This document shows, piece after piece, positions 1,761 to 63,170 of a DNA stretch of 64,000 bases. Within the stretch, counting starts at the first letter, position 1. Each line of letters opens with the position of its first letter. The DNA comes from Pelagomonas calceolata (Eukaryota): the NCBI GenBank assembly GCA_918797485.1, contig CAKKNE010000004.1, positions 1,984,001-2,048,000 on the forward strand, given 5' to 3'. The notes below the pieces were generated by a model, which saw only the letters and a list, made by a program, of their open reading frames with translations, was not told where the DNA came from and did no database searches. Position numbers and translations under genes: made by a program.

Positions 1761-1783
1761 CTAGTGTGTTTACAGTCCGCTAG
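1761..1783 (+). promoter_or_regulatory. Paired-CTAG intergenic element
   Basis: ttgCTAGtgtgtttacagtccgCTAGc between divergent genes. Confidence 0.65.
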
Positions 1784-1972
1784 CTCGCCTTCGCCTCTTC
1801 TCATTTGCCCGGTCGGCGTTGAGGCACGTTTTAAAGCTCAAACGTCGAAGCGTCTAAGGCAGGTCGCCAGCCCAAGGCCCTCGCGGCATCCGTGTTAACG
1901 CACTTGTCTCCCAAAGGCCCCGAGTCCACACCACAAAAAGAACGCCACCAGACGCGACAAACAACGCTGCCG

Positions 1973-2860
1973 ATGCTCCGCCAGACCTGCTCCGTCCTGC
2001 TGCGGCGCCGCACTTCTGCGCTGCGAGCCTTCGCCACGAAACCGGACCTGACGCTCGTCGAGGATCGGGACGGCATTCGGACGATCACGATGAACAACCC
2101 GGCCAAGTACAACGGCTGGACGGACCCCATGCTCCGGAGCTGGATGGGCCGCTTCGCCGATGCCGCGACCGACGACAGCGTCAAGGCCCTGATCCTGACG
2201 GGCAGCGGCAAGTACTACTGCGCCGGTGTTGATCTAAGTGGCACGATAAAACCCATGTGGCCGAAGCAGCTGCACGACCAGATCTACACCTTCAACAAAC
2301 GGGTGTTTGACACGTTCCTCGAGTTCCCGAAACCCTTGTGTGTTGCGGTAAACGGGCCGGCCATCGGCGCGTCCGTGACGACGGCGACGCTCGCCGACTG
2401 CGTCGTGGCGTCGACGAACGCGACCTTTTCCACGCCCTTCGCGCGGCTCGGGGTCCCGCCGGAAGGCTGCTCCAGCGTCCACTTCGCGCGGCTCATGGGC
2501 CCCGAGAACGCGATGAGGATGTTGGGGATGGACGGCTGGGCGCCCACCGCCAAAGAGGCGGCGGCCGTGGGGCTCATCAACGAATGCGTGTCTTCAGAAG
2601 ATCTGTTGGACGCGGCGCATGCCCAGCTCCGGTCGCGGCTCGCCAACGCGGACTACGTGAAGAACCACCGGGGGTACGCGGACACGGCCGAGTTGATAAA
2701 AGTGAACGACCGCGAGTCGAAGGACCTCGCGGACGCGTTCCTGGCCGTCCCCTTCCTGCGGGCCCAGGCCGACTTCCTCGCGTCGAAGGGCAAGAAGAAG
2801 GAGGCCCTCGTCTTCGAGGCGCTCGTCGCGACGCGGCCCGCGTGGAGCCTGTTGCTGTGA
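1973..2860 (+). CDS. Enoyl-CoA delta-isomerase/crotonase family protein, probably mitochondrial
   Basis: YYCAGVDL, VAVNGPAIGA, TPFARLGVPPEGCSS; Arg-rich MLRQTC presequence. Confidence 0.85.
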   Translation: MLRQTCSVLLRRRTSALRAFATKPDLTLVEDRDGIRTITMNNPAKYNGWTDPMLRSWMGRFADAATDDSVKALILTGSGKYYCAGVDLSGTIKPMWPKQLHDQIYTFNKRVFDTFLEFPKPLCVAVNGPAIGASVTTATLADCVVASTNATFSTPFARLGVPPEGCSSVHFARLMGPENAMRMLGMDGWAPTAKEAAAVGLINECVSSEDLLDAAHAQLRSRLANADYVKNHRGYADTAELIKVNDRESKDLADAFLAVPFLRAQADFLASKGKKKEALVFEALVATRPAWSLLL

Positions 2861-2876
2861 TTTAGAACTGGTCTTT

Positions 2877-3089
2877 TTATTCCTCTAGTTCGTTCGCCTG
2901 CTCGTCCAGCATCTGGAGCATTTCCGCCGCGTCGGCCATACTTTCACCCGACAGGCACTTGAACTTGCAACCGTCTACGACTTTCTGCAGCCAATACAGC
3001 GCCCGGATGGGGTCCTTCGGCAGGCCATGGAAGCCCGAGTAAAATCCCCTGCCGAGTTTCATCGCGCCGAGGTCCGAACCAAAGCCGTG
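2877..3089 (-). pseudogene. Orphan C-terminal Sel1-repeat fragment
   Basis: GSDLGAMKLGRGFYSGFHGLPKDPIRALYWLQKVV is Sel1-like; no upstream coding region is present. Confidence 0.55.
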
Positions 3090-3216
3090 AAAAAGATAAA
3101 AATTGTAAAACCCGTTTTGATGGGTGAGGGACGCCTGAGCCTGACGCGTAATTCGCCTGTGTGAGCTTGCGACATGCTAGAAATTAGTCCACACACACCC
3201 CTACGACGACGAGAGA

Positions 3217-6200
3217 CTAGTCATGAACGGCCCTTGCCGGCGCGTCGAAGTATCCGGGCACGACCGGCGCGTCGTCGTCGCCGGCGTGGTCGTCGTCGCG
3301 CCCGCGGACGCGGACGTCGACGAGGCGCGGCTTTTCGTGGACGCGCTCCTCGTAGAAGCGCCGCACGTCCGCGAGGCCCAGCGCCTCGACGGCCGCCGCG
3401 ACGCGCTCGGGCCGGTCGAACGACGGCGCGCCGTCAGAATCGGGCGCCAGCAAGCAGCCCCACGCCTGTGCCGCCTCGCTCGCCATCGAGGTCGCGGGCT
3501 CGCGCCACTTCTTGGCGAGCGCGGCCTTCGCCGCCGCGAATTCAACCCCGTCGAAGTCGGGCCGCCACGCGTCCAGGAAGGCCTCGACGCGCGCCGCCGC
3601 GTCGTCCGAGCAGACGCGCTGCGACTGCACCCTCAATAATAGCAGGAGCCGGCCTCGAGCGGAGGAATACGACATCGACACGAGGTAGCCGAGCTGCTCG
3701 CGCGTGCGCAGTTGCGTGAAGAAGGGCTCCTTCGCCACGTGAACTAACAGAGACGCCGTCGCGTGCGTTCGTACGTCCTTCTTCGGGCCGAGGTCGTAGC
3801 ACTTTAAAACTGCAGAGTCCTTGTCGTTCTTCGCGTTCGGCGAGAAGCGCGCGACCCGCAGGGGCTCGTTCACAGCCGGCGCCGCGATGCGGCGCCGCGC
3901 GGGCCACGACCCTCGGACATCATCTACAAAGAACCGCGCCTCGACCACGGCCTCGGCCGCCGCGACATCTGACTCGTCGACGGCGCCGTGGACGTGTAAA
4001 AGCGCGCGGCAGCCCTCCAACGCTCGCGACGCGTGAGACCGGACGTCGTCGAGGGTGACGGCACCCACGGCGTCGCGGACGTCGCCCACCGGCGGCCGGC
4101 CTTCGTCACACAACTCCCGCCGCCAGCGGGACGAGTGCGAGTCGGCCCGCGCTTTGTCGACGTTCCTAAGCGCCCGCACGAGCCGGTCGCGCACGCGTTC
4201 GAACGCGGCCGCGTCCCACGTCGGCGCCGCGATCTCTTCACACACGGCGTCGAGCAAGCGCCACACTGCGCCGCCCGCGAGGCCGCCAACATATAAATCC
4301 ACACCCGACTCGAAGAACGCGTCCGACACGTCGTAGCTCAGGCCGGCGCAGGTCGCATCATACAAAGGTTTTTCGAGGTTCTCGAGCGCGAGGTTGACCC
4401 ACAGCAAAGCACAGGCCCGGCCCCGCGCACCGCCGCGCCCTAGCGCTTCGGAGGCGACGCGGCAGTGCGCGTAGGCCTTAGGCTGCCCGAACGTCGCGTC
4501 TTTCTTCCACCAGCTCACGAGCCGGCCCTGGGTCCGGCGGCGCGGCGGCGCGGACGAGGCGGCGCGCCGCGCCGCGTCCTTGTCTTCACTGTCGCGCCAC
4601 GCCGGCCGCGCCAGGCGGAGCCGCTCGGCGTCGGGCAAATATGCATTTCCAGCCGGCGCGCCGAGGTCCGTCGCTGTTACGCCGCGGCGCACGGCCTCGC
4701 CATACGACTCGATCTCCGCCCGCGTCAGCGGCCGCGATCCGTGCTGGACGCCGTACCAGCGCTCCGTCTCCAATGCCACGGACGGGGCCTTCGTCGCCAC
4801 GTGCACGATGATCTTCGAAGGGTCCGCCAGCGATGCAACCAAGGTGCTCAGCAGCGCCGACCGCTGCGGCGACCAGTCCGCGTCGCCGCACAAGCCCGGC
4901 CGGCCGCCGCACAACACGTGCGCGCCGTCGACGTCGTGGAGCGTCCGCGCCAAACTAGATACGATCGAATAGGCGCTTCGCCTCGAGCTGGCAAAATCGA
5001 AGGTCGCCCGGTCGATCGCCGCGAGCTCGCTCCACAGTCGCGCGCCCGTCTGCGCCTTGTCCAAATCGCGCCGGAGCGCCCCGACGGCCTCGAAGCACGT
5101 CTCTAACACTTCGCCGTACCGCTTCGTCTCGCCGGCCTCCGTGAGCTCGACGCGCATCGATAAACACGCGGCTTCCTTCAGAGACGGCCCGACGCCAAAA
5201 CTTAAAGCGTGAGCGAGACCTCTGCTCTTGAGCTTTGCGAGCAAGGACCGAGGGCCCTCGTGGCCCAGCGCGTGACCTACGATGTGCTCGGCACCATTCC
5301 GATAGTCGTCCCTCAACCCAAACGGCAGCGGCCACATGATCCTCAGCTCCCGCAAGTCGCGCACGGGCTTGCGCTCGTGGACGACGCCCGTCGCCGCGAA
5401 CAATGGTGGAGGCGCCTCTTCGCAGGGCGTCGGGCGCTCTCCGGATGCCCGAGAAGTGCTCCGCTAGCAATAATTCGAGGTCGTCGAGGCTCCGCGACGA
5501 GACGAGGCACACGGTCATGTTTTCCGGGTCGTAGCGGTCGCGCCAGAACGACAGGAGCCGCTCGCGGATCCGGGGCACCTGCAGCGTCTCGAGGCAGCCC
5601 GTGGAGAAGTTCGAGAAGGGGTGGTTTTGATTTGCGGATTTCCTCAAGACCTGGTACGCCCGCCGCCCGTCGTCATTGAGGTTCTTGGAGTGCTCGGCGT
5701 CGACGGCGTGCATCTCCCGATCCACGCACGATTCCAGCAGCAGGGGCTCGCGAAAGAAGCGCGCGAAGCGGTCCAAGGCGCCTCCAAAGGCCTCATCCAC
5801 AACGTCAAATTGAAAACACGTCTGCTCGCCGCTCGTCGACGCGTTCGTCGACCCCGCGTGCCTTGCCACAAATTGCTTGTAAGCGTTGTCTTCCCGGTAC
5901 GTCTCCGTGCCCTGGAACAGCATGTGCTCGAGGAAGTGGGCGAGGCCCGCGATATCGGTATCGGCGTAGGCGCCGACGCCGACGCATAATGCCGCGGCAG
6001 CTTTGTCCGTCGACGTGTCCCGCACCAAGACGCCGCGGATGCCGTTCGCAAGTTTCGCGAGGCGGAACGACCGATCATCACATAATGCTTTGTGCGGCTG
6101 GCCGAGGCGCTCGAGGCCGAGGGGCGGCGGGCCCTTGGGCGCCGTCGTCGGGCACAGGCCGCCGAAGTCGCCCTCGGTCACGTGGATTTCGCCGCAGTCG

Positions 6201-6256
6201 CGGCAGCAGGGCGGCTCGTTGGCCCAGCCGGCGCCGGGGACGAGGAGTGAGGCCAT
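3217..6256 (-). CDS. M16A insulysin/pitrilysin-like zinc peptidase, frameshifted near 5440
   Basis: GLAHFLEHMLFQG (HXXEH), LGHEGPRSL, FGQPKA and FFTQLRTREQLGY are split across two overlapping frames. Confidence 0.85.
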
Positions 6257-6462
6257 GTATGAGCACTGCTGCTGCAAGATTGCTGCACTGCCGGCCAGAA
6301 CTCAAACTGCAGGCAACGCTGAGCAATGATTCGAGATATATTTAGTAAATTAGACAGGTTGCGGTTGCGTAGGTCAGTAGGGAAGAGGCAAAAGGGCCGG
6401 CGCCGCTCCGAGGTATAAGGTACCATACCGATACCTTACCCGGCAGCAAAGCTACTACTCTG

Positions 6463-6526
6463 CTAGCGTTTGAAGGGCTCTAGAGCCTGGCCAGCGCGGT
6501 GCTTGCTAGTTTTACAAGGCCACTAG
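6463..6526. promoter_or_regulatory. Two paired-CTAG elements (6463-6483 reverse, degenerate; 6506-6526 forward)
   Basis: gCTAGcgtttgaagggctCTAG and gcttgCTAGttttacaaggccaCTAG, upstream of the peptidase. Confidence 0.55.
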
Positions 6527-6533
6527 ACAAAAT

Positions 6534-8351
6534 TCACTTATGCACACTATCAACATCCTCCTCCTCGTCGCTGCTCGCGACATCCGACCACCGATCGGTC
6601 TCATCAGGAACAGGCAGAACTGGAAGGGGCGGCGGCGCGGGCTCCGCCTCGGAGACGCTCGCGCCGTAGACTCCGCCGCCGGCCAGCGCCGCGCCGGCCG
6701 CCGCGCCGACGGGGCCCGCGAGGAGCCCGCCGACGGCCGCCCCGGCGACGGCGCCGCCCGAGCACTTGGCCGTCCAGGCCCACCAGTCGTAGTGCTCCGT
6801 CGCCTGCTCGGTGACCCAGTCCTGGCAGCCGTACTCGCGCCAGAGTTTCTGACTGTTCTCGAACACCGCCGCCGCGTCGTACACGACGTCGCGCGACGCC
6901 GCGTTGCCGCTTCCGAGAAGGAGCCGCGCTTCGCCAGCTAAAGCGACCGTCAGCGACAGCGCCGACGCCGCGCCGCCGTCGCCGCCCGCCGCGTAGGCGG
7001 CAGCGCCGGCCGCGGACAGTCGGGCGACGCCGGTGGCGAGCCGCCGGACCCGCGCCGACGTCTGCAGCGTCCGCAGCGACACGCGGCAGGCGCGCGAGTC
7101 GAGGTACGTCGCGAGCTTCCTGAGGTTGTGCCACGCGGCGATCGCGTCCTCGTCGCCTATGATGAGGTCGAGCCCTTCGTCCCTCTCGAGCAACACCAGC
7201 GCGCAGCGGCACTGGTCGGCCTCGCGCGCCGCGGCCGCCGTGCCGGCCTTCGCGGCGCGGCGCGCAGCCGCGCGCGCGTCGGCGGCGGCGTCCTCGCACG
7301 CGCGCGTTCTCTCTGCGCACTCATCTCGGATGAGCCGCAGCCTCATCAAGTCGCGTGCGACCACCGGCGCCAGCGGCGCCGCGACGGCCAACCCCCGGGT
7401 CCAACCCAGCCACGCGAACGCGAGGAGGCCCGGCGCGGCGCCCAGGCCGCGGCAGAGCACGGCGGGCACGTAGCCCGGCGCCGCCGCGTCGGCGAGCTCC
7501 CACGCACGGGCACTCGCCCACTCCGCCGTCTCGTCGGCGTCGAAGTGCTCGTCGACCAACCTTCTCTCCAGCGCCGCCAGCGCCGCGACGCCCGCGCCCG
7601 CCGCGCCGGCGCCGAGCGCCGCGACGGCCTCCAGCACGACCGCCCAGGCGTCGTTCGCCGTCGCCGCGTCGTTGTCCCAGACTTGCGCCACGCGGCCCAA
7701 GAGCGCCGCCCGGAACAGCTGCTCGCGCGACAGATCCTCGAGCGGCGCCGCGGCGATTCTCGACGCCGCGGCGCGGACGGCCGCGCGGCTTTCGTGGATG
7801 GCCCTGCGGCTGACGGCGCCGCCCGCATGCGGCGAGCTCAGGGCCCACCGGAAGACCGCGAGGCCGAGCGCGAGGAGGCCCCGCCGCGGCGCGCCGCCGT
7901 ATAACGCCCACGCCGCGTACGCCACTGCCGGAAGGTCTTCGGCGCCGGTCAGCGCCGCGCCGCCACAGACCGCTGCGATCAAGACCGCGGCGCCGTCGGC
8001 CCGCACGGCCCCGCCGCCGGCCGCGATCGCCCCGGCCTCGGCGAGCGGCGCGGCGGCGTAGAGCAGGAGCGCGCCGCGCCGCAGCGATGCGGGCCGCGCG
8101 AGCGCGTTGCTCGCGTGCAGCACGACCACGGTCGCTATGAGAATGGACGCGACCGTCGCGAATGGCCGCGGGAACGCCGCGGCGACGGCGCACGCGGCCA
8201 GGACCAGCCCGCGCGCGGCCGTCTTCGTCTCGGGCGCGGCCCAGAGGCTGCGCAGCGTCGCCTCGGCGGTCGACGCGACGATGGCGCCCGGGTCGAGCGC
8301 GGCCGTGGTCCGCGGCAGGACGCGGGCTATGGTCATCTCTCCTCCGTTCAT
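6534..8351 (-). CDS. Hypothetical multi-pass membrane protein with C-terminal glycine zipper
   Basis: Long ORF with hydrophobic segments and GAVAGAAVGGLLAGPVGAAAGA. Confidence 0.6.
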   Translation of the reverse strand: MNGGEMTIARVLPRTTAALDPGAIVASTAEATLRSLWAAPETKTAARGLVLAACAVAAAFPRPFATVASILIATVVVLHASNALARPASLRRGALLLYAAAPLAEAGAIAAGGGAVRADGAAVLIAAVCGGAALTGAEDLPAVAYAAWALYGGAPRRGLLALGLAVFRWALSSPHAGGAVSRRAIHESRAAVRAAASRIAAAPLEDLSREQLFRAALLGRVAQVWDNDAATANDAWAVVLEAVAALGAGAAGAGVAALAALERRLVDEHFDADETAEWASARAWELADAAAPGYVPAVLCRGLGAAPGLLAFAWLGWTRGLAVAAPLAPVVARDLMRLRLIRDECAERTRACEDAAADARAAARRAAKAGTAAAAREADQCRCALVLLERDEGLDLIIGDEDAIAAWHNLRKLATYLDSRACRVSLRTLQTSARVRRLATGVARLSAAGAAAYAAGGDGGAASALSLTVALAGEARLLLGSGNAASRDVVYDAAAVFENSQKLWREYGCQDWVTEQATEHYDWWAWTAKCSGGAVAGAAVGGLLAGPVGAAAGAALAGGGVYGASVSEAEPAPPPLPVLPVPDETDRWSDVASSDEEEDVDSVHK

Positions 8352-8473
8352 GGTGGACAGCACAGCTTGCCAAGCCGGTGCAGCGAACGCAGGAGTGCAG
8401 GCACCCTTCGAGCGACGACGGCTGCGCCTACTTCGACACGTACGCCTGCGTTTTGGCCGGCCGAGGCTGCTTG

Positions 8474-8495
8474 CTAGTGTCTAACACGACGCTAG
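8474..8495 (+). promoter_or_regulatory. Paired-CTAG intergenic element
   Basis: gcttgCTAGtgtctaacacgacgCTAGc in a divergent promoter. Confidence 0.7.
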
Positions 8496-8680
8496 CCGAT
8501 TATAACAAAAATTAGAGTCGGAGGCACTGGCAGCGCTTGCGAGTTGAGTCCTCCGCAAAACACGCGTGCAACGCCAAAATTATAGCTGCACCACTGCGTC
8601 TGCGAGCGACGCGCTGCAACGCCCTGCATAAAACAAAACTGAGCGAGCAGCCAGTGGCGCTGCAGCGCGCGGCCGCAGCG

Positions 8681-12275: not shown

Positions 12276-12380
12276 GGACTTGGTTGGTGGATGTGAGGCT
12301 GAGGCTAGTTACGTCGCAGGGTTCCCCGTACCCCTCCCGCTCCCCCCGGGCCCACCCGTCCGGCTGGACTAGGACGTTCC

Positions 12381-12399
12381 CTAGTAAGTCTGTCGCTAG
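12381..12399 (+). promoter_or_regulatory. Paired-CTAG element (short spacer)
   Basis: CTAGtaagtctgtcgCTAGc upstream of the 12543 gene. Confidence 0.5.
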
Positions 12400-14767: not shown

Positions 14768-14790
14768 CTAGTATTTCATTGACATACTAG
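14768..14790. promoter_or_regulatory. Paired-CTAG element (near-palindromic variant)
   Basis: cCTAGtatttcattgacataCTAGg in a divergent promoter. Confidence 0.55.
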
Positions 14791-16207: not shown

Positions 16208-17718
16208 CTACGCCTCCTCGGCGTCGGCGACGGTCCCGTAGGCGAAGAGGAAGTCCTCGAGGAACTCCTCGGCGTCGATGCGGCCCGCGCGGGACGCCTC
16301 GCGCGCGACGACGCCCACCGCCCCCCGCAGCCAGGCGTCGACCTGGGGCAGCTTCGACCGCTGCCACTTGCGGTCGCCCTTGCCGGCGCCCGCGAGGTTG
16401 CGCACGGAGCGCTTCAGCGTCGACAGGGGCCGGGCCCGCGGCAGCTTCTTGAGCGACGCCGCCGCGACGGGTGGCAGGCGCTTCGCGAGGCCCTTGCGCA
16501 GCTTGAGCAGGTCGCGCCACGACCGCTTGACGACGATCGTCCGCGACGCGCCGCCGTCGACGGGGATCGCCACGCGGACGCCGTAGAAGCCCCGCTGCAG
16601 GTCGTAGGCGTCGACGCGCACGCGGAGCGTGGCGAGGGACCGGAGCGTGCGCAGCGCGCGGCAGACGGACGCGCGGTGGCCGCGCGGCGCGCCCGGCGCC
16701 GCCGCGAGCTGGAGCTCCCGGCCCCGCGCCTCGGCCGCGGCGGAGGCCATCTCGGCGACGATGGTCAGGGCCTCCTCGTCGAGCTTCGCGGCCTCCTCGA
16801 CCGACACGTCCGCGTCGTCGTGCGCCGCGTCCGTCGCGTTCGCCTCGAGCCTGCGCGCGTGGCGCGTCGACATGGCGTCGCGTCGAGACATGGCGTCGCG
16901 TCGACATGGCGTTGCGTCGACATGGCGTCGCGTCGATGGCGTCGCGTCGACGTGGCGTCTCGCGTCGACATGGCGTCGCGTCGACGTGGCGTCGCGTCGA
17001 GACATGGCGTCGCGTCGACATGGCGTCGCGTCGACATGGCGTCGCGTCGATGGCGCAGGGTCTCGACGCGCGGGACGAGCGGGCGATGGGACCGGGACGC
17101 CGCGGCGCGCCACTCCCAGACCAGCGCGAGGTCGATCATCTTGGCCACGGACTTGAGCCGCGCGCGCCGCTGCGCGACCATGCGGGCGCGCGCCTCGACC
17201 ACAGCCGCCTCGCGCGCGCGCCGCGCGCCGGACTCGCGCTCGCGCGCGCGCCGGGCCGCGCCGCCGTCGGCGAGGATCGCGCTGAGGCGCCGCAGCGCGC
17301 GGCGCTGCGCCGGCGTCGCGTGCTCGAGCGACGCGCGGCGGCCCGTCGAGCCGCGGCGGCCGACGCTCTTGCGCCAGGACGCCGCGCGCCGCGGCGGCGC
17401 GCCGTCCTCGTCGCTCGACGAGCTGTCGGACGAGTCGGGCGAGCCCGCGGGCGGCGGCGGCGGCGGCGCGCGGATCTGGGCCGCGAGCTCCGCCTCCATG
17501 CGCGCGAGCGCCGCGTCGGCGGCCGCGACGTCGGCCGCCGTGGGCTTGCTCGGCGACGCCGTCGGCAGCACCGGCGCCGGCGCCGGCGCCGGGGGCGCGG
17601 CCACCTTCTTCGTCGGCGTGAGCTCCTCGTCCTCGCTGAGGACCGCGAGCGCGTTCAGCTTCGACGCGAGGGGGCGCCGGTGCGGCGAGCGCGAGCGGGG
17701 GGCGGCGTAGGAGGCCAT
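16208..17718 (-). CDS. Protein with C-terminal PX-like domain; join(17093..17718,16208..16850)
   Basis: A GT-AG intron at 16851-17092 joins the frames (AAASR/LEANATD); VVKRSWRDLLKLRKGL...LP is PX-like. Confidence 0.65.
16862..17055. repeat. Intronic minisatellite of about 16-bp CGCGTCGACATGGCGT units
   Basis: About 12 degenerate tandem units fill the intron. Confidence 0.9.
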
Positions 17719-17959
17719 GGTCCGCGGACTAGCGGTCGCCTGCGCGCGAAGACGGGCTGCGTGGCGTCGTCTGCGCGTAACTGGCCCGTTCTCGGTCACG
17801 CTCACACGCCGGGGCGCGACGGCGCGGCGCCGCGGAGGTCCTGCGCGCGCAGTGAAGTGGGATTGCTGTAGCCAGCACGGGTGCGCGCGCTGCGGTATCA
17901 GGTGTATCTACGTCCTCGAGCACAACAATAACGTCGGTCTCTCTCACGAGTAATAGACA

Positions 17960-18990: not shown

Positions 18991-19077
18991 TGTTAAAATT
19001 GATTAAAAAGTGCGGGTTTTATTCTCGTAGACATATATGCATATGTTGTAAGTAAAACAAACAAACAACATCCAACA

Positions 19078-20503: not shown

Positions 20504-20524
20504 CTAGTGTCTTACGACCGCTAG
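20504..20524 (+). promoter_or_regulatory. Paired-CTAG intergenic element
   Basis: ttgCTAGtgtcttacgaccgCTAGc in a divergent promoter. Confidence 0.7.
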
Positions 20525-24539: not shown

Positions 24540-24620
24540 ATCTCTAAGTTCGATTCATTGGGCTGCCCCCGGTTCAGTACGGCGCTGTGCGGCCATTTTA
24601 CGTCCATCATCGAGCGCTTG

Positions 24621-24642
24621 CTAGTGCCTTACCGGCCGCTAG
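24621..24642 (+). promoter_or_regulatory. Paired-CTAG intergenic element
   Basis: gcttgCTAGtgccttaccggccgCTAGg within a 187-bp divergent gap. Confidence 0.7.
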
Positions 24643-26204: not shown

Positions 26205-26225
26205 CTAGCGGCGTAAGGACACTAG
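26205..26225 (-). promoter_or_regulatory. Paired-CTAG intergenic element
   Basis: Reverse complement reads gcttgCTAGtgtccttacgccgCTAGc. Confidence 0.7.
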
Positions 26226-26627
26226 CAAGCAATTAGCAGGCATCCGTCCACTATGGCACGTTCGGCTGACTGTGGCCCACCGCAAGACTGCCGCGGCGGC
26301 ACACAACACCGCTAGCCTGTCGAGTACGCATCTCAGCAAGCAGCCCAAGTGGCAAGGCCCCAAATCCCCCCTCCGCGCCACTCGTGCCGGCGTAGCTGTC
26401 TCGCAGACGAGCCATCGACTCTCCGGAGGACTACAACGGCGAATCAGTTGATGAGCCGCTCGAGACAAACACGCAGCGTCGACGACATCGCCGGATAACA
26501 AGCAGTTACCAGTGCGAAGCAGTGCCAACAACGCAAGAGGGTCGATCGCACACGTGCGAGCAATGCAACTTTGATTGCGGAAGCTGCACGCGTCTCGTTG
26601 TTTCCTCGGCGAGCTCACGCCCTAGCC

Positions 26628-29581: not shown

Positions 29582-29602
29582 CTAGCGTGACATACATACT
29601 AG
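29582..29602 (-). promoter_or_regulatory. Paired-CTAG intergenic element
   Basis: Reverse complement reads gCTAGtatgtatgtcacgCTAGt. Confidence 0.6.
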
Positions 29603-32146: not shown

Positions 32147-32168
32147 CTAGCGTTTCGAGACACACTAG
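32147..32168 (-). promoter_or_regulatory. Paired-CTAG intergenic element
   Basis: Reverse complement reads gCTAGtgtgtctcgaaacgCTAGc. Confidence 0.65.
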
Positions 32169-32425
32169 CTCGAGTCCCGAAGCGGCCTTAGACTAGAGTT
32201 ACACGTCTCCGTGGCGGTGCGCGAGAAGTGGTAGGCAGCGAGTCTCATCCAGTAGACCTGCGGGCCAGAGCTCACAGCTCGCTCTCGACCACACAGATCT
32301 CACACAGTGCTAGCTCTCTGGAAGGTGTCGAGAGCGCGCGCGGGCGCGGACCGTAACGTTGCGCCTGTGTGGTGTACGACTGCCTCGCTGTTCCGCAGCG
32401 GTACAAGTAGACTCCGCGACGAACG

Positions 32426-34652: not shown

Positions 34653-34672
34653 CTAGTGTCTCAAGCCACTAG
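34653..34672 (+). promoter_or_regulatory. Paired-CTAG intergenic element
   Basis: ttgCTAGtgtctcaagccaCTAGc. Confidence 0.65.
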
Positions 34673-36543: not shown

Positions 36544-36545
36544 TA

Positions 36546-38203: not shown

Positions 38204-38223
38204 CTAGCATGTAAGACCACTAG
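38204..38223 (-). promoter_or_regulatory. Paired-CTAG element upstream of RRP9
   Basis: Reverse complement reads CTAGtggtcttacatgCTAGc. Confidence 0.6.
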
Positions 38224-40103: not shown

Positions 40104-40392
40104 CGTTATCGGCGGCTCCCGAGGCTGTTACACCACTGGTGCTCGGCCCTGCGCGGCGAGATGCGTTTCGCCGCTGGGCGCTGCTCCTGGCCTATTTGTT
40201 GGCTACCGGGCGAGCGTACCAGGGCGCACGAGGCCTCCGAGGCTTGCAATAATTGGCCCTGCCCCACCTTTATGCCAGCACGGCTTTGCGGCCTCCATGC
40301 CACCAAGGTACCGCCCCTGACGCCTCGCTCGGACGGTTCAAGGAGGCCAGTACGTCTCCTCTCCACATTTCCAACTGCTTTGCGTTTTTCAG

Positions 40393-40412
40393 CTAGCGTC
40401 GATGCCTACTAG
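40393..40412 (-). promoter_or_regulatory. Paired-CTAG intergenic element
   Basis: Reverse complement reads aCTAGtaggcatcgacgCTAGc. Confidence 0.55.
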
Positions 40413-40520
40413 TAATTTTATGCGGCCGCGCGGCTTCGTCGTCTGAGCCGACGTACGGCACCCTCGAGTCAAGACGTTTGTTTTCATCAGCAGCGATCAC
40501 TCAGTCTAGCGGAACCGAGT

Positions 40521-41323
<803 letters not shown>

Positions 41324-42493: not shown

Positions 42494-42686
42494 CAAAACT
42501 ACGAAGGCTCTTTATGGGGGATGTTATTGAGCTTATCGTGACAGATATCGTGACCCAGGACCACTGGCATTGCTGAAAGGGTTCATGCAGGACGGGATTA
42601 AGTTAAACCTTTGTACTAGTATTAGACTGTAGACGCGCCCCCGACGCCGTCGACGCGAGCCGCCCGTGTGACGGCGAAGCGATACT

Positions 42687-43376: not shown

Positions 43377-43587
43377 CCGTAGAGTGGAGTGGGAGAGTCA
43401 AGCCACGTCGCCGGCAGCTCCGCTTGCTCTCAGGCTGCTCGGAGAGCAGGTTACTCAAACACGAGTCAAGCCACGTCTTCGACCACTGGTCGTCGGCGGC
43501 ACAGCGTCAGAGGTGCCAGAAATGTGTGCCAGGGCAGGTGACGAGCAACGGTACGCCTACGCTGTGAAAAAAATTGTGAGCCTGCTC

Positions 43588-43608
43588 CTAGTGTCTTACT
43601 GACGCTAG
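43588..43608 (+). promoter_or_regulatory. Paired-CTAG intergenic element
   Basis: cCTAGtgtcttactgacgCTAGt. Confidence 0.7.
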
Positions 43609-43750
43609 TTAACGCGCGGCAGCTTTTGCACGCTCAGCCTCCTTGTGACACCTACTGGCGCTGACTGCGGCCGCACGGTTCCTACAGCTAACCGTCGCTA
43701 GCGTTTTGGCGCAGCCGAACGCCAAAGCAGCTCGCAAAAGGGCCGTAAAA

Positions 43751-47700: not shown

Positions 47701-48293
47701 GCCTTCGCGTCGTCCTCCAATTGTAGCTGGGCCCGTTGGAGCTCCGCTTCGCGCAGCGCGGCGGCCTCGCCCGCCGCCGTCTGGGCCGCGGCCTGGGCCT
47801 CCGCTTCCCGCGCAGATTGAGTATCAGCCTCTGCAGCTTCGTGCGCTCGGGCCGCGGCGTCGGCTTCCGCGGCCGCGCGGTCCGCCGCGGCCTTTTGCGT
47901 GGCGATGCGGTCCGCTTCGGCCGCTGCTGCCGCGTCCGCTGCTGCCTGCTGCTGTGCGGCAGCCTCGGCGGCCGCGCGGTCCGCTGCTGCCGCCTCCGCT
48001 GCTCTGGCGGCTTGGTCCCGCTCGGCTTGCTCCGCCGCAAGGCGCGCCGATTCGTCAGGCTCCGCAGGGGCAGGCTCGGCCTCCGGCTTGGCGGCCTCCG
48101 GCGTGGCGGGTGCCGCGGCGGCGGGCTTCCGGAGCGCCTCGAGGCGCGCGCGGGCGGCCGCGGCCCGCGCCGCCGTCGACGAGGCGCCGCCGCCCGCCCG
48201 GTTCCGGGCCCGCTCGGCCGCGGCGCGGGCGGCGTCGAGGTCGGCCCCCACGGCCTGAAGGGCTGCCAGGAATAGCAGCAGGCGCCGCGCCAT
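44709..48293 (-). CDS. ATAD3-like AAA+ ATPase with signal peptide and peptidase-S74-like domain
   Basis: LGRPRLVRETSR, PFRHMLLHGPPGTGKT, MSGGDVGPLG, FIDEAEAFL, LNAFLYQTG, FSGREI. Confidence 0.85.
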   Translation of the reverse strand: MARRLLLFLAALQAVGADLDAARAAAERARNRAGGGASSTAARAAAARARLEALRKPAAAAPATPEAAKPEAEPAPAEPDESARLAAEQAERDQAARAAEAAAADRAAAEAAAQQQAAADAAAAAEADRIATQKAAADRAAAEADAAARAHEAAEADTQSAREAEAQAAAQTAAGEAAALREAELQRAQLQLEDDAKAKAQEALKEREAKAAAIRAKEAQQAQEAAQEAADRAIEQAEATRLRLEEEERAREEALRVQIEREANALVEAEARRLEQAKVQLLEDEKRAAERREADAIERQKAAEAAAASRREASERDAAAAAAKREMREAALAEEAARLAELEEVKRREALLEAEQAQMRLEREEAARARAREQATDKQGGKAPPDIYKDVEDVDTSELLDVISKIPLRVYELEKDTMEGRRRFGVIGEEVEQLVPDAVRVGRRAFSQGPKKPPVFVDDVAIVDDPVLFMHGVGAVQRLWEKQEHLRDTTRFLSHRANETASRFAALDDRLHLEPRELDEERLIEARKDHEKFRENEELLDKEAVNEKKASLQRQKLENATLRVEDAAARDRSKAEDLAARDRHAEKLRLQEQSVRDQEEVRRKTDEALLKQRLEDEVKIEALRKEAELARVKAEEEARAAAKRANEDIHLRAMRAKAAEDRKKVLEAVQLVAQYAGRGAATLLDDPKLLMTLVGAIVALVGGGHFAREAAILTRSLAEAYLGRPRLVRETSRRYFGKSTTALKVVLRLLFYPVFWVGRMPSHMIFLRHRMVDLKLWLVYGCIVAYYSICFMLGEMYQSIKHQGKKLALLIERRKLAKKTRRQLTREDAEFFRDVKKMRSDEYAKACRARAKTHDDERRAVQASRNEIHQKNLAMEREALQRERRKEAAFLDGVVLPDELRQRVLQLAIATRNAKANRAPFRHMLLHGPPGTGKTLVAKRLAKASGLEYALMSGGDVGPLGSDGVTALHTLFRWARTSETGVLVFIDEAEAFLASRSRAKLTEHMRNALNAFLYQTGSPTTSFVLVLATNRAEDLDEAVLDRVDETLYFGLPAFAARDKLVRLYYDVYCASLIERKRHFLKKIWDAVRRAPASLKVTKDVTPALLGEVARDTDDFSGREIEKLFVAVQSAAYGRDGRLDANTITTAVAVKRGEHDRKNAMNAADSTLRSSAVDAAMNSPRANSRDGKQRSPRRR

Positions 48294-48392: not shown

Positions 48393-48413
48393 CTAGTGTC
48401 TTTACGCCGCTAG
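48393..48413 (+). promoter_or_regulatory. Paired-CTAG intergenic element
   Basis: gcttgCTAGtgtctttacgccgCTAGt. Confidence 0.7.
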
Positions 48414-52459: not shown

Positions 52460-54509
52460 CTACCAATCAAATCGTTCGACGGCGACGGGGGCGTCGATTT
52501 GCCGACCGATGGCGCGGAGGTCCCGCTCGACGCGGACGACGTTTCCGCAGTACATGAGGCCCCAGTTCGCACACAGCTTTCGAGGCGCGCGCTTCGGACG
52601 CGGGGGCTCCTCGGACGCCACGACGCTCATCAGGAGCTCGAACTCGTCCTGCGTTCCGCGGCACACCCTTTCGCAGTGGGAGACGAGCGCGGAATACGTG
52701 AGCGCGCGCTTGCCTGCGGCTATATGCCGCAAGATGTCGCCGAGGTCGTCGTCTTCGACGAGCATCTGCGACGTGCTCAAGAGATCGATGCCACTTGCGA
52801 TATCTTCCTCGGAAACGAGATCGCCGTCGTCGTCGCTCTCGTCGCCGCCGTCAACAGTTCCAAAGTTGGCCCATGGGCCCATGGTTCGTCGTAAGCGCCC
52901 GTCGGCCCTTCCGGGTCGGGGCCTATCAGCCAGGCTGCGGGACCGCGCCCTGTGCAGCGTTTCGGTGCGAAACGAGGCCGAAATCTCGCTAGCGCCCATG
53001 CCGCGCGCGGCGCAACGCCGGAGGAGCGCGTCGAACCGTGCCGGCGCGCCGTTCTCGGGGCCACCGCCGTAGCCCCCGAGGAGCTCCGTGGGCCGGAAAC
53101 GGCACTCCGGCAGCGCCTGGTGCGTCTCGACGGCCTCGACGACGTCGAGAACGACTTCACCGAGATCGCCTGGGCGGCCGTCCACGAGGTAGACGCTGCT
53201 CCGCCCCCGGAGGTCCGCCTCGAGATGCGAAAGCGGCGTCTTGCCCGTGTAAAAGACGAGCGCGATGTCCACGGCGTCGAGCAAGCCCTCGCGCAGATAG
53301 AACGTGACGAGGGCCGCATCGCGGACCATCCAAAGTAACGACATACTCCGGGTCTCGGCGTGCCGTTGGATCGTCGCGAGCGCCGGCGTGATGCCTATGC
53401 CCGTCGCGACGAGGAGCAAATTATCGCGGTCGGCGGCGTACGCGGCGTAGGGGGACGGGAACGGGCCCTGGACCCAGATTGGGCGCGTCGTCGGCCGCTC
53501 GATCGCGTCGTGGAGCGCCCGCGTCCAGTCCCCGGCGGCCGTGATGCAGAGGCTGACCCGTTTCTTGCCGGCCGCGGCGCCGTACGCCGAGAAGGGGTGC
53601 CACTGCGTCCTCGAGAGCCACGGGATCAGCACGTACACGTAGCCCTCCACGCTGTCGTGCCACCACTCTGGTTTCTGAAACGAGACCTGGACGCTGGCAC
53701 CGAGCCGCTCGAAGACGGCGTCCTCGACGCGCAACGCGCGGTAGCAGAGCGCGTAGAGCGCGTCGGCGCCGTAGATGGCGAGCGCTGCGCCCGCGACGGC
53801 CGCGCACACGCGAGTGTGGCACACGACGGCCACGGTGCCGGAGATGCCGAGCAGCACGTGCACGGCCTTCCGAATCTCAAACGACACGAGGGCGCAGCGC
53901 CCGAGCTGTCACGAGCACGAGGACGGGCGCGCAGCAGCACATCGCGGCGAGGCCACTTCGCCCGGCACCGCCGCCCAGCTTGGCCCGCAGCTCCCGTCGT
54001 ATTAGCCACCTCGCGAAATGAGCGATCGTGTGCAACACGGCAAATCCAGCGACGCGCCAGCCGCAGGCCTCGTGCGTCTCGTGCAGGTTGTCCGCCGCGA
54101 CGAGGATGGACCCGACGTTCTCCTCCCAGCGCGCCGCTGACACGCGCGCCTTCGTCAAGAAGAGCGCCACGAGGTACGGGAGCGCCGCGTAGGCCGTCGT
54201 GCGAGCGACCGCAAGCAGCAGGACCTCGATCCAACCCTCGGCGCAGATCGACGGCCGCGGGCAGACCGTGACCGTGCGCCGCCAGCGCGCGGCGCCGATG
54301 CGCGTCCAGGCCGGAAGGAAGACACACAGGCTATACGCGACCGCCGCGGCGCTGGCAGCAGCCACGAACGAACTCAGCGACGCGATGGAGCTGTCCGCCG
54401 ACGTCGTCTTTGCGCGGCGGCGCGCCTCCCGCCTCCTCAGCGTCGGTGACGGAGGCGCTTCGACGTCGTCTTTGGTTGGTGAGACTTTGGTTGGTGAGGC
54501 GCGCCACAT
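52460..54509 (-). CDS. Ferric reductase/NADPH oxidase (FRE/NOX) family protein, frameshifted near 53890
   Basis: TM histidines (HETH, LHTIAH), QWHPFS (FAD), GDWT, GPFPSP, VATGIGITP, MYCG, ERFDW. Confidence 0.8.
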
Positions 54510-54933
54510 CTACGCCGGCTGCCCGAGGAGTGAAACCTCGTGCTAGTGCTGCTAGGACCCCATGTTAGGCGCTTAGGAGTTGCGAGGCAGCCTGAAAACG
54601 CGGTCTCAAGCGTTCTGAGATCGTCCCTGGTTTGTACTCTTGGCATCAACTCTGAATTGCTCCTCACACGCACATTTCATCCCGGCACGTAGCTGGGTTC
54701 GCTCACAGTTGTCCGGAGGTCTGTAATGGTCGTTTGAATCGTCTCGCAAGGCTCGCGTCCGGGAACCTACTAGGCGGCTGCCGCAAACGGTGCGCGCGGC
54801 CGGACGTTGTCGGCAGCCCCACCATCAGCGGCAAACGCGTTGCGGACTGCAAACGCGCCGGGAGGCCTCACAAAGACGCAGCTGAACAGCGCGTCACACC
54901 GTAGCGACAGCCGTTAACGACCGGGGCAGCACG

Positions 54934-60122: not shown

Positions 60123-60440
60123 CGTGGCGTTCGCAAGCAGGCAGCCTCCTTTTGCAGCAGGCGCGTTGACGGCGTGCCGGTTGCAAGTGTGCAGCTGCGC
60201 TCCACTGGGTTGTTAACGAGTTTTATCTATACGTCCAATTGCTCGACGAGTGGGGTGTTTGCGTGCTTTTGCGCGGCGGAGTTCGTTTTGCGGCCAAGTT
60301 CGGGTTTTTCCGGGCTTTTCGCGAAAAGTCCTGTCGCGGATGCTAGCGCTAGATTCAGACTTCCGCGCAATCCAAGTGGCGCTTGCGGCCCGCGCCGTGC
60401 GCCGCTTCTAGATGATCTCGATGCCCATGCCGCAGACAGG

Positions 60441-61304: not shown

Positions 61305-61375
61305 CTTTCTGTATGAGTATCCTGAGAGGGTAGTAATGGGGAAAGGCGGACCAACGCAGATACATATGAAGATCA

Positions 61376-61699
61376 TTACTGCGGCCGCGGGCCCATGTAG
61401 TAGGTGTTGATGGGGATCGGGTCGATTGATTGCGACGAGCCGCCGCGGGACTCGCGCGGCGGCTCGTCGCGGGACTCGCGCGGCGCCGGAGCCCCCGTCG
61501 TCGGCATCGCGTTGTGGACGGTGGTCGGGTGAGGCATGCTCGCGCCCCACCCCGTCGCCTGCCACCCAGGGTGCCGGTAGCCGCTCTCGGCCGGTGACGC
61601 TCTCGGAGTTGTCTGACTCTGCGCGGCCGCGGCGTGGCCGGCGAGCAGGATCACGGCGGCCGTCAGCGCGCGTCCGAGCGGGCGTCGTCGGATCGGCAT
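61376..61699 (-). CDS. Small putative secreted protein
   Basis: Signal-peptide-like N-terminus; duplicated PRESR. Confidence 0.35.
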   Translation of the reverse strand: MPIRRRPLGRALTAAVILLAGHAAAAQSQTTPRASPAESGYRHPGWQATGWGASMPHPTTVHNAMPTTGAPAPRESRDEPPRESRGGSSQSIDPIPINTYYMGPRPQ

Positions 61700-61975
61700 T
61701 GCTGCTCCGCGTCTCCGACAGAGTTGTGAGAGCAAAGTTGCCACAGAGCGATATCTACGCGTTATTCGGATGCGTCGCGTCAGTGCGGTCCAGTGCGGTC
61801 AAATGGACACGCGCACAAAGCTCTAACGTTCAGCGGCGACGTAAAAGCTCGACGAGATATGACATGAACCTCCAAGCCCGAGCCACGATAAAAAAAGGCT
61901 AAGCTGAGCTGACGGACCGCTCCAAAACGCCACAATGCGACGTCCAGCACCACCTTAAGGACTACTAACAAAACC

Positions 61976-62966
61976 TTAGGACGAAGCCTCCGCCGCTCGA
62001 ACCGAAACGAACGGCGCGTCCGCGGCGGCCGACCGTAACGCAGCGAGGATGCGCTGCTGCTGCGCCAGTAGAGCCTTGGAAGCGGGCTCGATCCTCAAGG
62101 CGCGCATGACGTCCTGGGCCGCGGCGCGGTGCTTCCCGAGCGCGTGCCGCGCCGTCGCGCGGCGCTGCAAACTCTTAAAGTGGTCCGGCTCATAAGACAG
62201 GGCCGTGTCGCAGTCCGCCTCGGCGTTGTTGTACTGGTTCTGCTTCAGGTAGGCCATCGCGCGATTCGATAACGCGACGTGGTTCCTTGCTTTCAGTCCC
62301 AGACACAACGAGTAGCTCCGCACGGCGCCCTCGTAGTCGCCTTTGGAAAATTTCTCGTTGCCCAACCGGCGCTGGGCCTCCTCGGGGTTCTCCGGTTCCG
62401 CCAGAGGGCGCGCGTCGGCGGGGACCTGTGTTTGGTTCATTCCAGTCGCGTCCCGAGGCCGCGTCGCGGCGATGGCGTCCGAGGCTGTGTCGCGTCGATG
62501 GCGTCTGGCGCCCCCGTACGCCCTCGCCGCTAACCGACGCGCACTCTCGTCGCGTCGCGTCGATGCCACCTCGACGCGGTCGTCACACAATGATCTTCGG
62601 ACGCCGCATTTGTACCTCCTCGACGACGGTCGTCGCCTCCTCATCAATATCATAGTTGTCCGCGTCGAACTGCTCCCACTTTTTGTAGCCCTTGTCATAC
62701 ACATGGGCGCCCGGCGCTTTTGCTGATTGTTTTCGATGCTGCGCGGCACCCGCATCACTCTTAGCCGCCGAGTTCCGCACGCCCACCCTCATACCGCCGC
62801 GCACGGGCGGCAGGTCCGTGGGCGCCGCGCGGCGCTCCTTGTCTTTTTTCGCGATGTCCCGATTCCAGTCGGCGAACTCGCCCAGGTAGTGCTGTTGTTG
62901 CTGGGCGTCGTTTCTTATTTTGTGCTGCATCTCGAGCATCCTTCGCTGCTGGTCGGCGGGATTCAT
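61976..62966 (-). CDS. RPAP3-like TPR co-chaperone; intron 62426-62615
   Basis: QHKIRNDAQQQQHYL...KKD...LPPVR N-terminus; carboxylate-clamp-type TPRs (GNEKF, SNRAMAYLK); phase-0 GT-AG intron. Confidence 0.8.
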
Positions 62967-63148
62967 GGCTGCGAGGTCCTGCGAGGTCTTGCGAGGTCTT
63001 TGAGCAGCTAGTGGTTGGCAGGTACGGCGCTGCACGAGGGCTTGGAAGCAGGCCCGTCGAGACGGATGGTGTCCCGATTCACTGCTCTCGCACCAATTCG
63101 ATGCCTTTTGGTCCGTTTTACCGCTTTGCTGAGCAACCCTAGGCATCC

Positions 63149-63170
63149 CTAGTGTGTCACACGACGCTAG
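63149..63170 (+). promoter_or_regulatory. Paired-CTAG intergenic element
   Basis: cCTAGtgtgtcacacgacgCTAGc. Confidence 0.7.

What the first reader, a model, noticed from the sequence alone, without database searches (positions are those of the whole stretch)
1761..63170. Recurrent bipartite CTAG-N(11-15)-CTAG element marking most promoters
Seen: 17 copies, with the first CTAG on + at 1761, 6463, 6506, 8474, 12381, 14768, 20504, 24621, 26205, 29582, 32147, 34653, 38204, 40393, 43588, 48393 and 63149. The consensus is about GCTTG-CTAG-TGTCTTACRNCG-CTAG-C, with CTAG starts 15-19 bp apart, in either orientation. Thirteen copies sit singly between divergent start codons and the other four lie upstream of tandem genes. 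I saw none in convergent gaps or coding sequence. The flanking genes are functionally unrelated. Inference: this is a general, asymmetric promoter element, for example a site for a general regulatory factor that organises a bidirectional nucleosome-free region, or a domesticated transposon end. I do not recognise it as a described motif.
Basis: partly seen in the sequence, partly recalled or inferred. Interest (0 to 1): 0.9.

Follow-up and report, generated by a model that had tools for sequence, protein, structure and literature searches.

The report
Two-part promoter signal of Pelagomonas
A 28-letter, two-part DNA signal sits in the middle of most gene-start regions of this very common ocean alga (almost certainly Pelagomonas), is kept by selection, and is likely the docking site of one general protein that opens the DNA so that genes on both sides can be read.

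Summary
Real and, as far as searched, undescribed. All 17 copies are present (about 2 expected in shuffles). They lie in 13 of 17 divergent gaps, 3 of 6 tandem gaps, 0 of 16 convergent gaps and none in coding DNA. A metagenome scan returned 130 further copies with unrelated flanks; three loci tested cluster with Pelagomonas calceolata proteins. They sharpen the consensus to GCTTG-CTAG-TGTCTTAC-AGGCCG-CTAG-CT, with CTAG starts mostly 17-18 bp apart. The element is kept at an orthologous promoter whose flank has decayed to background. It sits about 200 bp from start codons on both sides, in promoters without TATA boxes, with A/T tracts beside it. In stranded RNA-seq, three 5'-end clusters lie 29-39 nt beyond one half and outside the element; ATP sulfurylase starts about 250 nt away. 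Hairpin, structured-RNA and longer-repeat readings failed their tests. Best reading: the site of one general regulatory factor that keeps bidirectional promoters open, like yeast Abf1 or Reb1 but at about 70% of promoters. The protein and the chromatin effect are inferred, not shown.

The parts
1761..1783 (+). Element (strand + means the A module GCTTG-CTAG-TGTCTTAC is on the left). Divergent gap between a glycosyltransferase-like gene (ATG 1621) and enoyl-CoA hydratase (ATG 1973)
6463..6483 (.). Element, orientation ambiguous; first of a doublet upstream of the M16 peptidase (ATG 6256, minus strand), tandem gap
6506..6526 (+). Element, second of the doublet; 8 bp from the stop codon of gene 6534-8351(-)
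8474..8495 (+). Element, divergent gap 8352-8680
12381..12399 (+). Element (15-bp spacing), tandem gap upstream of 12543(+)
14768..14790 (.). Element, near-palindromic; divergent gap between ABC1 kinase and COP9 subunit 4
20504..20524 (+). Element, divergent gap between a proline racemase-like gene and 20700(+)
24621..24642 (+). Element at the centre of a 187-bp divergent gap (82 and 85 bp to the two ATGs)
26205..26225 (-). Element, divergent gap between borealin and ATP sulfurylase
26474..26511 (+). Inferred short first exon of ATP sulfurylase, so its main start is about 250 nt from the element (counter-example to a fixed distance)
   Evidence: joint 26511-26709; longest short side 31-38 letters in the 4 runs
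29582..29602 (-). Element, divergent gap between a radical-SAM gene and 29767(+)
32147..32168 (-). Element, divergent gap 32091-32425
32198..32205 (+). RNA 5'-end cluster 30-37 nt beyond the A-side CTAG
   Evidence: table 6, all 4 runs (one run also lists 32193)
34653..34672 (+). Element, divergent gap between a sugar transporter and 34938(+)
38204..38223 (-). Element, tandem gap upstream of a WD40 (Rrp9-like) gene on its B side
40263..40274 (-). RNA 5'-end cluster 119-130 nt beyond the B-side CTAG
   Evidence: table 6, all 4 runs
40393..40412 (-). Element, divergent gap 40104-40520
40441..40446 (+). RNA 5'-end cluster 29-34 nt beyond the A-side CTAG
   Evidence: table 6, all 4 runs
43549..43549 (-). 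RNA 5' end 39 nt beyond the A-side CTAG
   Evidence: table 6, shown for 1 of 4 runs (5 molecules)
43588..43608 (+). Element, divergent gap between a CYTH gene and a dual-specificity phosphatase
48393..48413 (+). Element, divergent gap between ATAD3 and Mpp10
54752..54773 (-). Probable degenerate copy (second CTAG reads CGAG) in divergent gap 54510-54933; score 12.8 is at the top of the shuffle range
63149..63170 (+). Element at the centre of a divergent gap (183 and 186 bp to the ATGs)

Best explanation
This is a selected, two-module DNA element at the centre of most Pelagomonas promoters, and it is likely the binding site of one abundant general regulatory factor that would keep the short promoter free of nucleosomes so that RNA polymerase II can start on both sides. 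Shown: a 17-bp A module (GCTTG-CTAG-TGTCTTAC) and a 9-bp B module (CCG-CTAG-CT) joined by a linker of variable length; usually one copy per promoter; either orientation; about 200 bp from start codons on both sides; outside the transcripts where 5' ends were seen; A/T tracts within 30 bp; no TATA box. Inferred: the two modules are read as double-stranded DNA by two flexibly linked domains or two partner proteins, since a 16-19 bp spacing range turns one half about 100 degrees against the other. Inferred: the bound factor and the A/T tracts exclude nucleosomes, and the element permits transcription without setting its level. The asymmetry may bias one start site to about 30-40 nt beyond the A module.
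For: Enrichment is 17 against about 2. Placement is promoter-only. The metagenome scan gave 130 distinct matches in 123 loci. Positions the pattern left free are conserved (T94 T88 A90 C88% among the 108 with 17-18 spacing), and 108 of 130 have spacing 17-18 although 15-20 was allowed. Of 46 metagenome copies with a gene call on both sides, 25 are divergent, 19 tandem and 2 convergent; 248 classified random positions gave 29 divergent and 73 convergent. Median distance to the ATG is 205 (n=50) on the A side and 210 (n=56) on the B side (heuristic gene calls). Selection: window spacers are 69% identical to the consensus, so neutral decay would leave both CTAGs intact in about 5% of copies and imply about 320 relics, which the scan does not find. 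Of 24 non-seed CTAGTGT sites, 18 have the partner CTAG, against 0-5 of 57-90 for five other CTAG+2 words. The orthologous promoter L041/L059 (84% DNA, 96% protein identity) keeps 25 of 29 element bases while the B flank is at shuffle level (44-49% against 45%). All 15 flanking genes in 24-44 kb have RNA depth on the expected strand, with up to about 100-fold difference between the two sides and no constant direction. TTTT and AAAA runs are about 3-fold commoner within 30 bp. TATAWA occurs in 8 of 296 flanks at no fixed place. Yeast GRF sites and poly(dA:dT) tracts define bidirectional promoters (PMC3875857, passages), and Abf1 has a bipartite DNA-binding domain (PMC12904797, passages).
Against: No binding, chromatin or reporter data. 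No nucleosome-length periodicity of CG or WW dinucleotides phased on the element once the promoter-to-coding step is removed (p 0.14-0.72, 120 flanks). Seven of 23 promoter gaps lack a full copy, and the one such gene inside the laid stretch (41552+) is still transcribed at low depth. Three of four A-side starts fall at 29-39 nt, which fits a core-promoter role as well. A/T tracts show no clear orientation on the A side. No candidate protein was identified. Start sites rest on one 20-kb stretch of poly(A) RNA-seq from one sample, and its 5'-end pile-ups include noise (one lies inside a coding region at 43372).
Confidence: 0.62

Rival explanations
1. It is a directional core-promoter element that replaces the TATA box: a basal factor (TBP-, TFIID- or SNAPc-like) binds it and places the start site a fixed 30-40 nt beyond the A module, while the gene on the other side starts more loosely.
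For: Three A-side 5'-end clusters at 29-39 nt. Promoters lack TATA boxes. The element is strongly asymmetric. GAAT is enriched 59-73 nt beyond the A module only (11 in the 64-71 bin against about 2 per bin, 145 flanks), which would be about +30 from such a start.
Against: The ATP sulfurylase main start is about 250 nt away on the A side. ATG distances are symmetric. In tandem loci the only gene is often on the B side (12381 and 38204; 13 A-only against 6 B-only in metagenome loci). No initiator-like dinucleotide peak at a fixed distance.
Confidence: 0.2
2. It is a relic of a mobile element (a CTAG target duplication around a 13-14 bp footprint, or a transposon end) that accumulated in promoters because they are the only open intergenic DNA.
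For: CTAG at both ends looks like a target-site duplication, and the insert begins TG and ends CG or CA. A subfamily of 8 of 156 copies shares a further 20-30 bp on the B side, and two loci hold tandem 55-64 bp units. Small repeats occur in these promoters.
Against: The CTAGs are far better kept than the insert. Only 37 of 312 flanks match any other locus, many through gene families, orthologs or a second copy. The element is kept at orthologous sites. It is mostly one per gap and near the centre. It does not resemble the ends of the introner-type intron in the window.
Confidence: 0.07
3. It serves chromosome functions that coincide with promoters, such as licensing replication origins or loading cohesin or condensin, and transcription only shares the open site.
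For: Long, information-rich, orientation-free and regularly spaced (0.14-0.27 per kb). It does not track expression level.
Against: Tight tie to gene starts and absence from convergent gaps and coding DNA. An estimated 4,500-8,500 copies per 32 Mb is dense for origins (inference). No direct test was possible.
Confidence: 0.06
4. It works as a DNA cruciform or an RNA hairpin formed by the imperfect inverted repeat GCTAGTG...CGCTAGC.
For: The two halves can pair, and copy 14768 has a perfect 8-bp stem.
Against: No covariation at any of 5 outer and 5 inner positions in 155 copies (smallest p 0.07). The element lies upstream of the mapped 5' ends. The loop sequence TTAC is conserved. No Rfam match in the window or in 20 loci.
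Confidence: 0.03

Closest known systems
Budding-yeast general regulatory factor sites (Abf1, Reb1, Rap1) with poly(dA:dT) tracts
   Same: Promoter-central, shared by unrelated genes, bidirectional, flanked by A/T tracts. Abf1 has a bipartite DNA-binding domain (PMC3875857 and PMC12904797, passages).
   Different: Unrelated sequence. About 28 bp, with a linker that varies by about 4 bp (Abf1's spacing is fixed; recalled). One element covers about 70% of promoter gaps here, whereas the yeast paper says none of these features is in all promoters and that the factors bind distinct promoter sets. No factor or chromatin data here.
Oomycete core promoter elements INR, FPR and DPEP (Phytophthora infestans)
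   Same: Stramenopile, TATA-less promoters with lineage-specific motifs (PMC3599244, abstract and passages).
   Different: Those overlap or follow the start site, are orientation-biased and occur in 7-18% of genes. CTAG does not appear in that text. This element lies upstream, in either orientation, at most promoters.
Heat-shock-factor sites of stramenopiles (TTCTAGAA, bound by P. infestans PITG_04701)
   Same: Central CTAG (PMC11267843, passages).
   Different: The flanks here are TG-CTAG-TG and CG-CTAG-CT, not TT-CTAG-AA. No nGAAn array.
Vertebrate and fly housekeeping-promoter elements (CGCG/BANP, ZNF143 and Ronin, DRE/DREF, M1BP)
   Same: Long or palindromic motifs at TATA-less, often bidirectional promoters (CGCG element seen only as an abstract in the listing; the rest recalled).
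   Different: No sequence likeness, and each covers a minority of promoters (recalled).
Introner elements and MITEs of pelagophytes
   Same: Same genome; dispersed repeats (10.1101/2021.10.25.465678, section 17).
   Different: Introners are about 200-bp spliced inserts with terminal inverted repeats inside genes. This element is 28 bp, intergenic, untranscribed where tested, and shares no ends with them.

Membership tests
General regulatory factor site (Abf1/Reb1/Rap1 type) | Enriched in promoters of many unrelated genes, absent from coding DNA | tested here: met
   16 of 23 promoter gaps, none genic; 44 of 46 classified metagenome copies have an outward gene on at least one side
General regulatory factor site (Abf1/Reb1/Rap1 type) | Works in either orientation and supports transcription on both sides | tested here: met
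   Both orientations; symmetric ATG distances; 15 of 15 flanking genes transcribed
General regulatory factor site (Abf1/Reb1/Rap1 type) | Under purifying selection | tested here: met
   CTAG against spacer argument; one ortholog pair with a decayed flank
General regulatory factor site (Abf1/Reb1/Rap1 type) | Neighbouring poly(dA:dT) tracts | tested here: met
   About 3-fold more TTTT/AAAA runs within 30 bp; orientation unclear
General regulatory factor site (Abf1/Reb1/Rap1 type) | Causes nucleosome depletion and phases nucleosome arrays | tested here: inconclusive
   Sequence proxy only: no periodicity after removing the promoter-to-coding step; no MNase or ATAC data
General regulatory factor site (Abf1/Reb1/Rap1 type) | Bound by an abundant sequence-specific protein | not testable with these tools
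   No binding data; no whole genome held
Core promoter element (TATA, INR, DPE type) | Fixed distance and orientation to the transcription start | tested here: inconclusive
   Three A-side starts at 29-39 nt, one at about 250 nt, one B-side start at 119-130 nt
Core promoter element (TATA, INR, DPE type) | Matches TATA, INR, FPR or DPEP sequence | tested here: not met
   Consensus compared with the motifs described in PMC3599244; TATAWA in 8 of 296 flanks
MITE or transposon end | Similarity extends into a longer shared body with terminal inverted repeats | tested here: not met
   37 of 312 flanks match another locus; column bias ends about 5 bp left and 2 bp right of the CTAGs
MITE or transposon end | Empty sites in relatives | tested here: inconclusive
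   Both ortholog pairs seen (L041/L059, L159/L161) keep the element; n=2
Structured RNA or DNA hairpin | Compensatory changes in the stem | tested here: not met
   155 copies, 10 position pairs
Heat shock element | Inverted nGAAn units (TTCTAGAA) | tested here: not met
   Flanking columns against the site in PMC11267843

The most novel reading that the evidence does not exclude
Pelagomonas defines most of its polymerase II promoters with one lineage-specific 28-bp bipartite element read by a single master factor (possibly transposase-derived). That factor both clears the promoter and places the start site beyond the A module, standing in for TATA/TBP recognition genome-wide. This would be a one-motif promoter code, not found described for any alga in the searches made.
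Probability: 0.3. Interest if true: 0.9.

Novelty: new variant of a known kind. Interest (0 to 1): 0.72.

Why it matters
Pelagomonas is described as widespread and highly abundant in the open ocean, yet no promoter element for it turned up in ten literature searches. The genome preprint has no occurrence of 'promoter' or 'motif' in its main text. A 28-bp signal at an estimated 4,500-8,500 sites gives an immediate marker for gene starts and a compact bidirectional promoter part for engineering. It is also a bait for finding the factor. Marine algae with linker-only CG methylation have unusually well-positioned nucleosomes (PMC5728721, passages, citing Huff and Zilberman 2014; that Aureococcus is among them is recalled). 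The element makes it testable whether one DNA-binding factor is the anchor for those arrays.

Tried and rejected
Whole-genome analysis: no genome is held for this window, so genome-wide numbers are extrapolated from the window and 315 kb of metagenome loci.
Hairpin or cruciform: no covariation.
snRNA, tRNA or other RNA gene link (a SNAPc/PSE idea): no Rfam hit in the window or in 20 of the 123 loci. The one ARAGORN call (47773) lies inside a coding region. No snRNA gene was available, so the idea is untested.
Nucleosome phasing from sequence: a first signal for CG at 208 bp (0 of 300 jittered sets reached it) vanished when the first 250-350 bp were left out. It was the promoter-to-coding step and is rejected.
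Oriented poly(T) tracts as suggested: per-sequence counts show both TTTT and AAAA on the A side, so only enrichment is claimed.
Longer repeat or introner end: not found.
Occurrence outside pelagophytes: the loose pattern gave 32 viral hits, none with TTAC directly after the fixed part. The strict pattern gave 0 viral hits and 6 hits in 596 Gb of prokaryote genomes. Four of the six (L156, L159, L160, L161) have eukaryote-type ORFs beside the element and two lie near contig ends; each of 5 bins checked holds only 1-3 matches. I read them as mis-assembled algal pieces.
Range beyond Pelagomonas: the highest-GC locus tested (L053) falls in a large cluster at 96% identity, with Aureococcus at 72%, so no other genus is shown.
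Six of 123 metagenome loci with GC under 0.54 (L062, L103, L118, L135, L147, L150) were dropped as likely chance matches from then on; they are included in the 130.
Earlier scan notes: nothing relevant.
Huff and Zilberman 2014 and the 2016 introner paper are not held.
Start sites for the copies outside 24001-44000 remain unmapped.
Full report
Observation. The 17 CTAG pairs are at the stated coordinates. Spacings are 15(1), 16(3), 17(7), 18(4) and 19(2). Block-wise dinucleotide shuffles give 1.8-2.1 pairs on average, and at most 7 in 600 shuffles. Oriented, the copies read GCTTG-CTAG-TGTCTTAC...CG-CTAG-C. I call the left part the A module and the right part the B module.

Organism and gene map. 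The window is a 66% GC, gene-dense eukaryotic stretch. The closest named relative of its COP9 subunit 4 is the pelagophyte Chrysophaeum taylorii at 52%. Proteins from three metagenome loci that carry the element (L041, L106, L063) cluster at 90% with named Pelagomonas calceolata proteins on 5.3-6.1 Mb contigs, and the window's own proteins lie on a 5.3 Mb contig. GC content, compact gaps and 200-bp GC-AG introns fit that species' description. P. calceolata is therefore an inference, though a strong one. Genes were mapped from ORFs, Pfam (44 ORFs) and exact look-ups (19 of 20 found).

Location. Full copies lie in 13 of 17 divergent gaps, 3 of 6 tandem gaps (one holds two), 0 of 16 convergent gaps and nowhere in about 50 kb of genic DNA. 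I removed one apparent tandem gap (53345-53876) because it reads as coding sequence. The convergent gaps total only 1.8 kb, so the strong contrast is with coding DNA. In the 13 divergent gaps the element lies at 0.20-0.72 of the gap, and at 0.41-0.59 in 9 of them. A matrix trained only on metagenome copies scores all 17 window copies at 11.8-34.3; five mononucleotide shuffles of the window reach 12.3-14.0 at most. It adds one plausible degenerate copy, at 54752. Gaps 11502, 56703, 60123, 17719, 41332 and 50355 have none.

More copies. The free positions are conserved: T94, T88, A90 and C88% after the fixed part among the 108 matches with 17-18 spacing, G61/C51/T75% on the left, and C85/T56% on the right. 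Spacing was 15(1), 16(9), 17(40), 18(68), 19(10) and 20(2). The consensus is GCTTG CTAG TGTCTTAC AGGCCG CTAG CT, with length changes falling between TTAC and CCG. Twenty-seven further CTAG pairs that did not match the pattern were also found, most with the same spacer. The same pattern in viral contigs gave 32 hits, none with TTAC at that place. The strict pattern gave 0 viral hits and 6 prokaryote-bin hits that look like mis-assembled algal DNA. Six low-GC loci were dropped from later counts.

Relation to genes elsewhere. Of 142 metagenome copies, 60 had at least 550 bp on both sides and 46 could be classified on both by a codon-score heuristic: 25 divergent, 13 with a gene on the A side only, 6 on the B side only, 2 convergent. 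Random positions gave 29 divergent and 73 convergent of 248 classified. Median distance to the ATG is 205 on the A side and 210 on the B side. The heuristic misplaces some starts in the window, so these medians are approximate. Density is 0.14 per kb (long loci, anchor copy removed) to 0.27 per kb (window), or roughly 4,500-8,500 copies per 32 Mb (extrapolation).

Selection. Window spacers average 69% identity to the consensus. If the eight CTAG bases decayed at that rate, only about 5% of copies would keep both, implying about 320 relics in the window; the scan finds about one. Non-seed CTAGTGT has its partner CTAG in 18 of 24 cases, against 0-5 of 57-90 for five control words. L041 and L059 are syntenic, 84% identical in coding DNA and 96% in protein. 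They keep 25 of 29 element bases, the B flank is at shuffle level (44-49% against 45%), and the A flank is 60-70% identical. This is one informative pair, and it may be a sister lineage or an old duplicate.

Transcription. Stranded poly(A) reads from four runs of one sample were laid on 24001-44000. All 15 genes flanking the 8 copies there have depth on the expected strand. The two sides differ up to about 100-fold (ATP sulfurylase against borealin), with no constant direction. 5'-end clusters lie at 32198-32205 and 40441-40446 (all four runs) and at 43549 (shown for one run), which is 29-39 nt beyond the A-side CTAG. One B-side cluster lies at 40263-40274, 119-130 nt away. Against a fixed distance, the ATP sulfurylase 5' intron has at most 31-38 letters on its short side, which puts its main start near 26474, about 250 nt from the element. 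Twenty rows of that table were not shown, and one pile-up (43372) lies inside a coding region, so these ends are indicative only. Copies outside this stretch have no start-site data.

Surroundings. TTTT and AAAA runs are about 3-fold commoner within 30 bp on both sides than further out. TATAWA is present in 8 of 296 flanks at scattered places. GAAT is enriched 59-73 nt beyond the A module only. CG density is about 9 per 100 bp out to 165 bp from the centre and about 13.5 beyond 180 bp, which coincides with the coding starts. An apparent 208-bp CG period disappeared without that step.

What it is not. There is no stem covariation in 155 copies and no Rfam family in the window or in 20 loci. It is not part of a longer repeat: 37 of 312 flanks match another locus. 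A subfamily of 8 of 156 copies does share a B-side extension, and two loci hold tandem 55-64 bp units, so some copies may spread by local duplication.

Mechanism. Shown: a conserved, two-module, asymmetric DNA element at the centre of most promoters, outside the transcripts where tested. Inferred: protein recognition of both modules with a flexible link, nucleosome exclusion helped by the A/T tracts, and initiation on both sides with levels set elsewhere (0.62). The main rival is a TATA-replacing core element that fixes the start beyond the A module (0.20); the two are not exclusive. A neutral transposon relic (0.07), a replication or cohesin site (0.06) and a hairpin (0.03) are weaker.

Comparison with what is known. 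It works like a yeast general regulatory factor site. PMC3875857 (passages) describes such sites and poly(dA:dT) tracts as non-directional promoter determinants, none present in all promoters. PMC12904797 (passages) gives Abf1 a bipartite DNA-binding domain and an insulating role at bidirectional promoters. Membership is not shown, since binding and nucleosome depletion are untested. It does not match oomycete INR, FPR or DPEP (PMC3599244, abstract and passages) or the HSF site TTCTAGAA (PMC11267843, passages).

Novelty. Ten searches found no description of this element. The literal 12-mer occurs in one unrelated paper (listing only), and the P. calceolata genome preprint has zero occurrences of 'promoter' or 'motif' in its main text. 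Not seen: that preprint's supplements and journal version, Huff and Zilberman 2014, the 2016 introner paper, and most subscription journals; any of them could mention the motif. Verdict: a real, previously unreported genome-wide promoter element. It is a new variant of a known kind because one long, variably spaced motif covers most promoters. Interest 0.72.

Noticed in passing
window 33042-33247: Introner-type intron with terminal inverted repeats inside the sugar transporter gene. It is spliced in RNA and has 78-87% identical copies in L107, L065, L064 and L045.
   Followed up: partly
window 40521-41331, intron 40533-40716: Well-expressed plus-strand gene with a GC-AG intron, missed by the ORF list.
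   Followed up: partly
window 35038-35058 and 40909: Many RNA reads leave the window sequence here with one agreed loose end (88 and 121 reads, agreement 0.99). Likely an insertion in the sequenced strain or a piece absent from this assembly.
   Followed up: no
L041:792, L056, L058, L086, L133, L140, L154: Subfamily of 8 of 156 copies with a B-side extension (about AAACGCGGGAGCCCTGGAAGCC). L140 and L154 hold tandem 64- and 55-bp units of element plus extension. It may be a co-factor site or a trace of duplication.
   Followed up: partly
59-73 nt beyond the A module, many loci, including window copies 24621 and 63149: GAAT enriched at a fixed distance on the A side only; a possible second, downstream element.
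   Followed up: partly
window 12294-12376: 83-bp repeat, 97.6% identical to L087, with CTAG at 12305 and 12369, lying on the A side of an element in both places.
   Followed up: partly
window 38235-38260: Word ACGGTGCTAGGACTAG (minus strand), seen by eye to match the end of a short repeat found near elements in L056, L083, L124 and L057.
   Followed up: no
window 60343-60352: CTAG-CG-CTAG with almost no spacer in a divergent promoter that lacks a full element; possibly a collapsed copy.
   Followed up: no
window 17719-19018: 1.3-kb low-GC gap without the element. It holds an A-module-like half at 17962 (minus strand) and repeats shared with L141 and L057.
   Followed up: partly
window 16760-17150: Short repeated units inside a minus-strand gene that translate as low-complexity text in several frames; probably an intron-borne repeat.
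   Followed up: no
window 52460-54509: The stretch 53345-53876 reads as coding on the minus strand, with an HPFS motif typical of ferric-reductase-like proteins (motif recalled). The two ORFs are probably one gene.
   Followed up: partly
L156-L161: Contigs in prokaryote genome bins that carry the element, four of them beside eukaryote-type genes; likely chimeric assemblies with algal DNA.
   Followed up: partly
window 47773-47865: ARAGORN tRNA-Gly call on the strand opposite a coding region; no Rfam support, likely false.
   Followed up: yes
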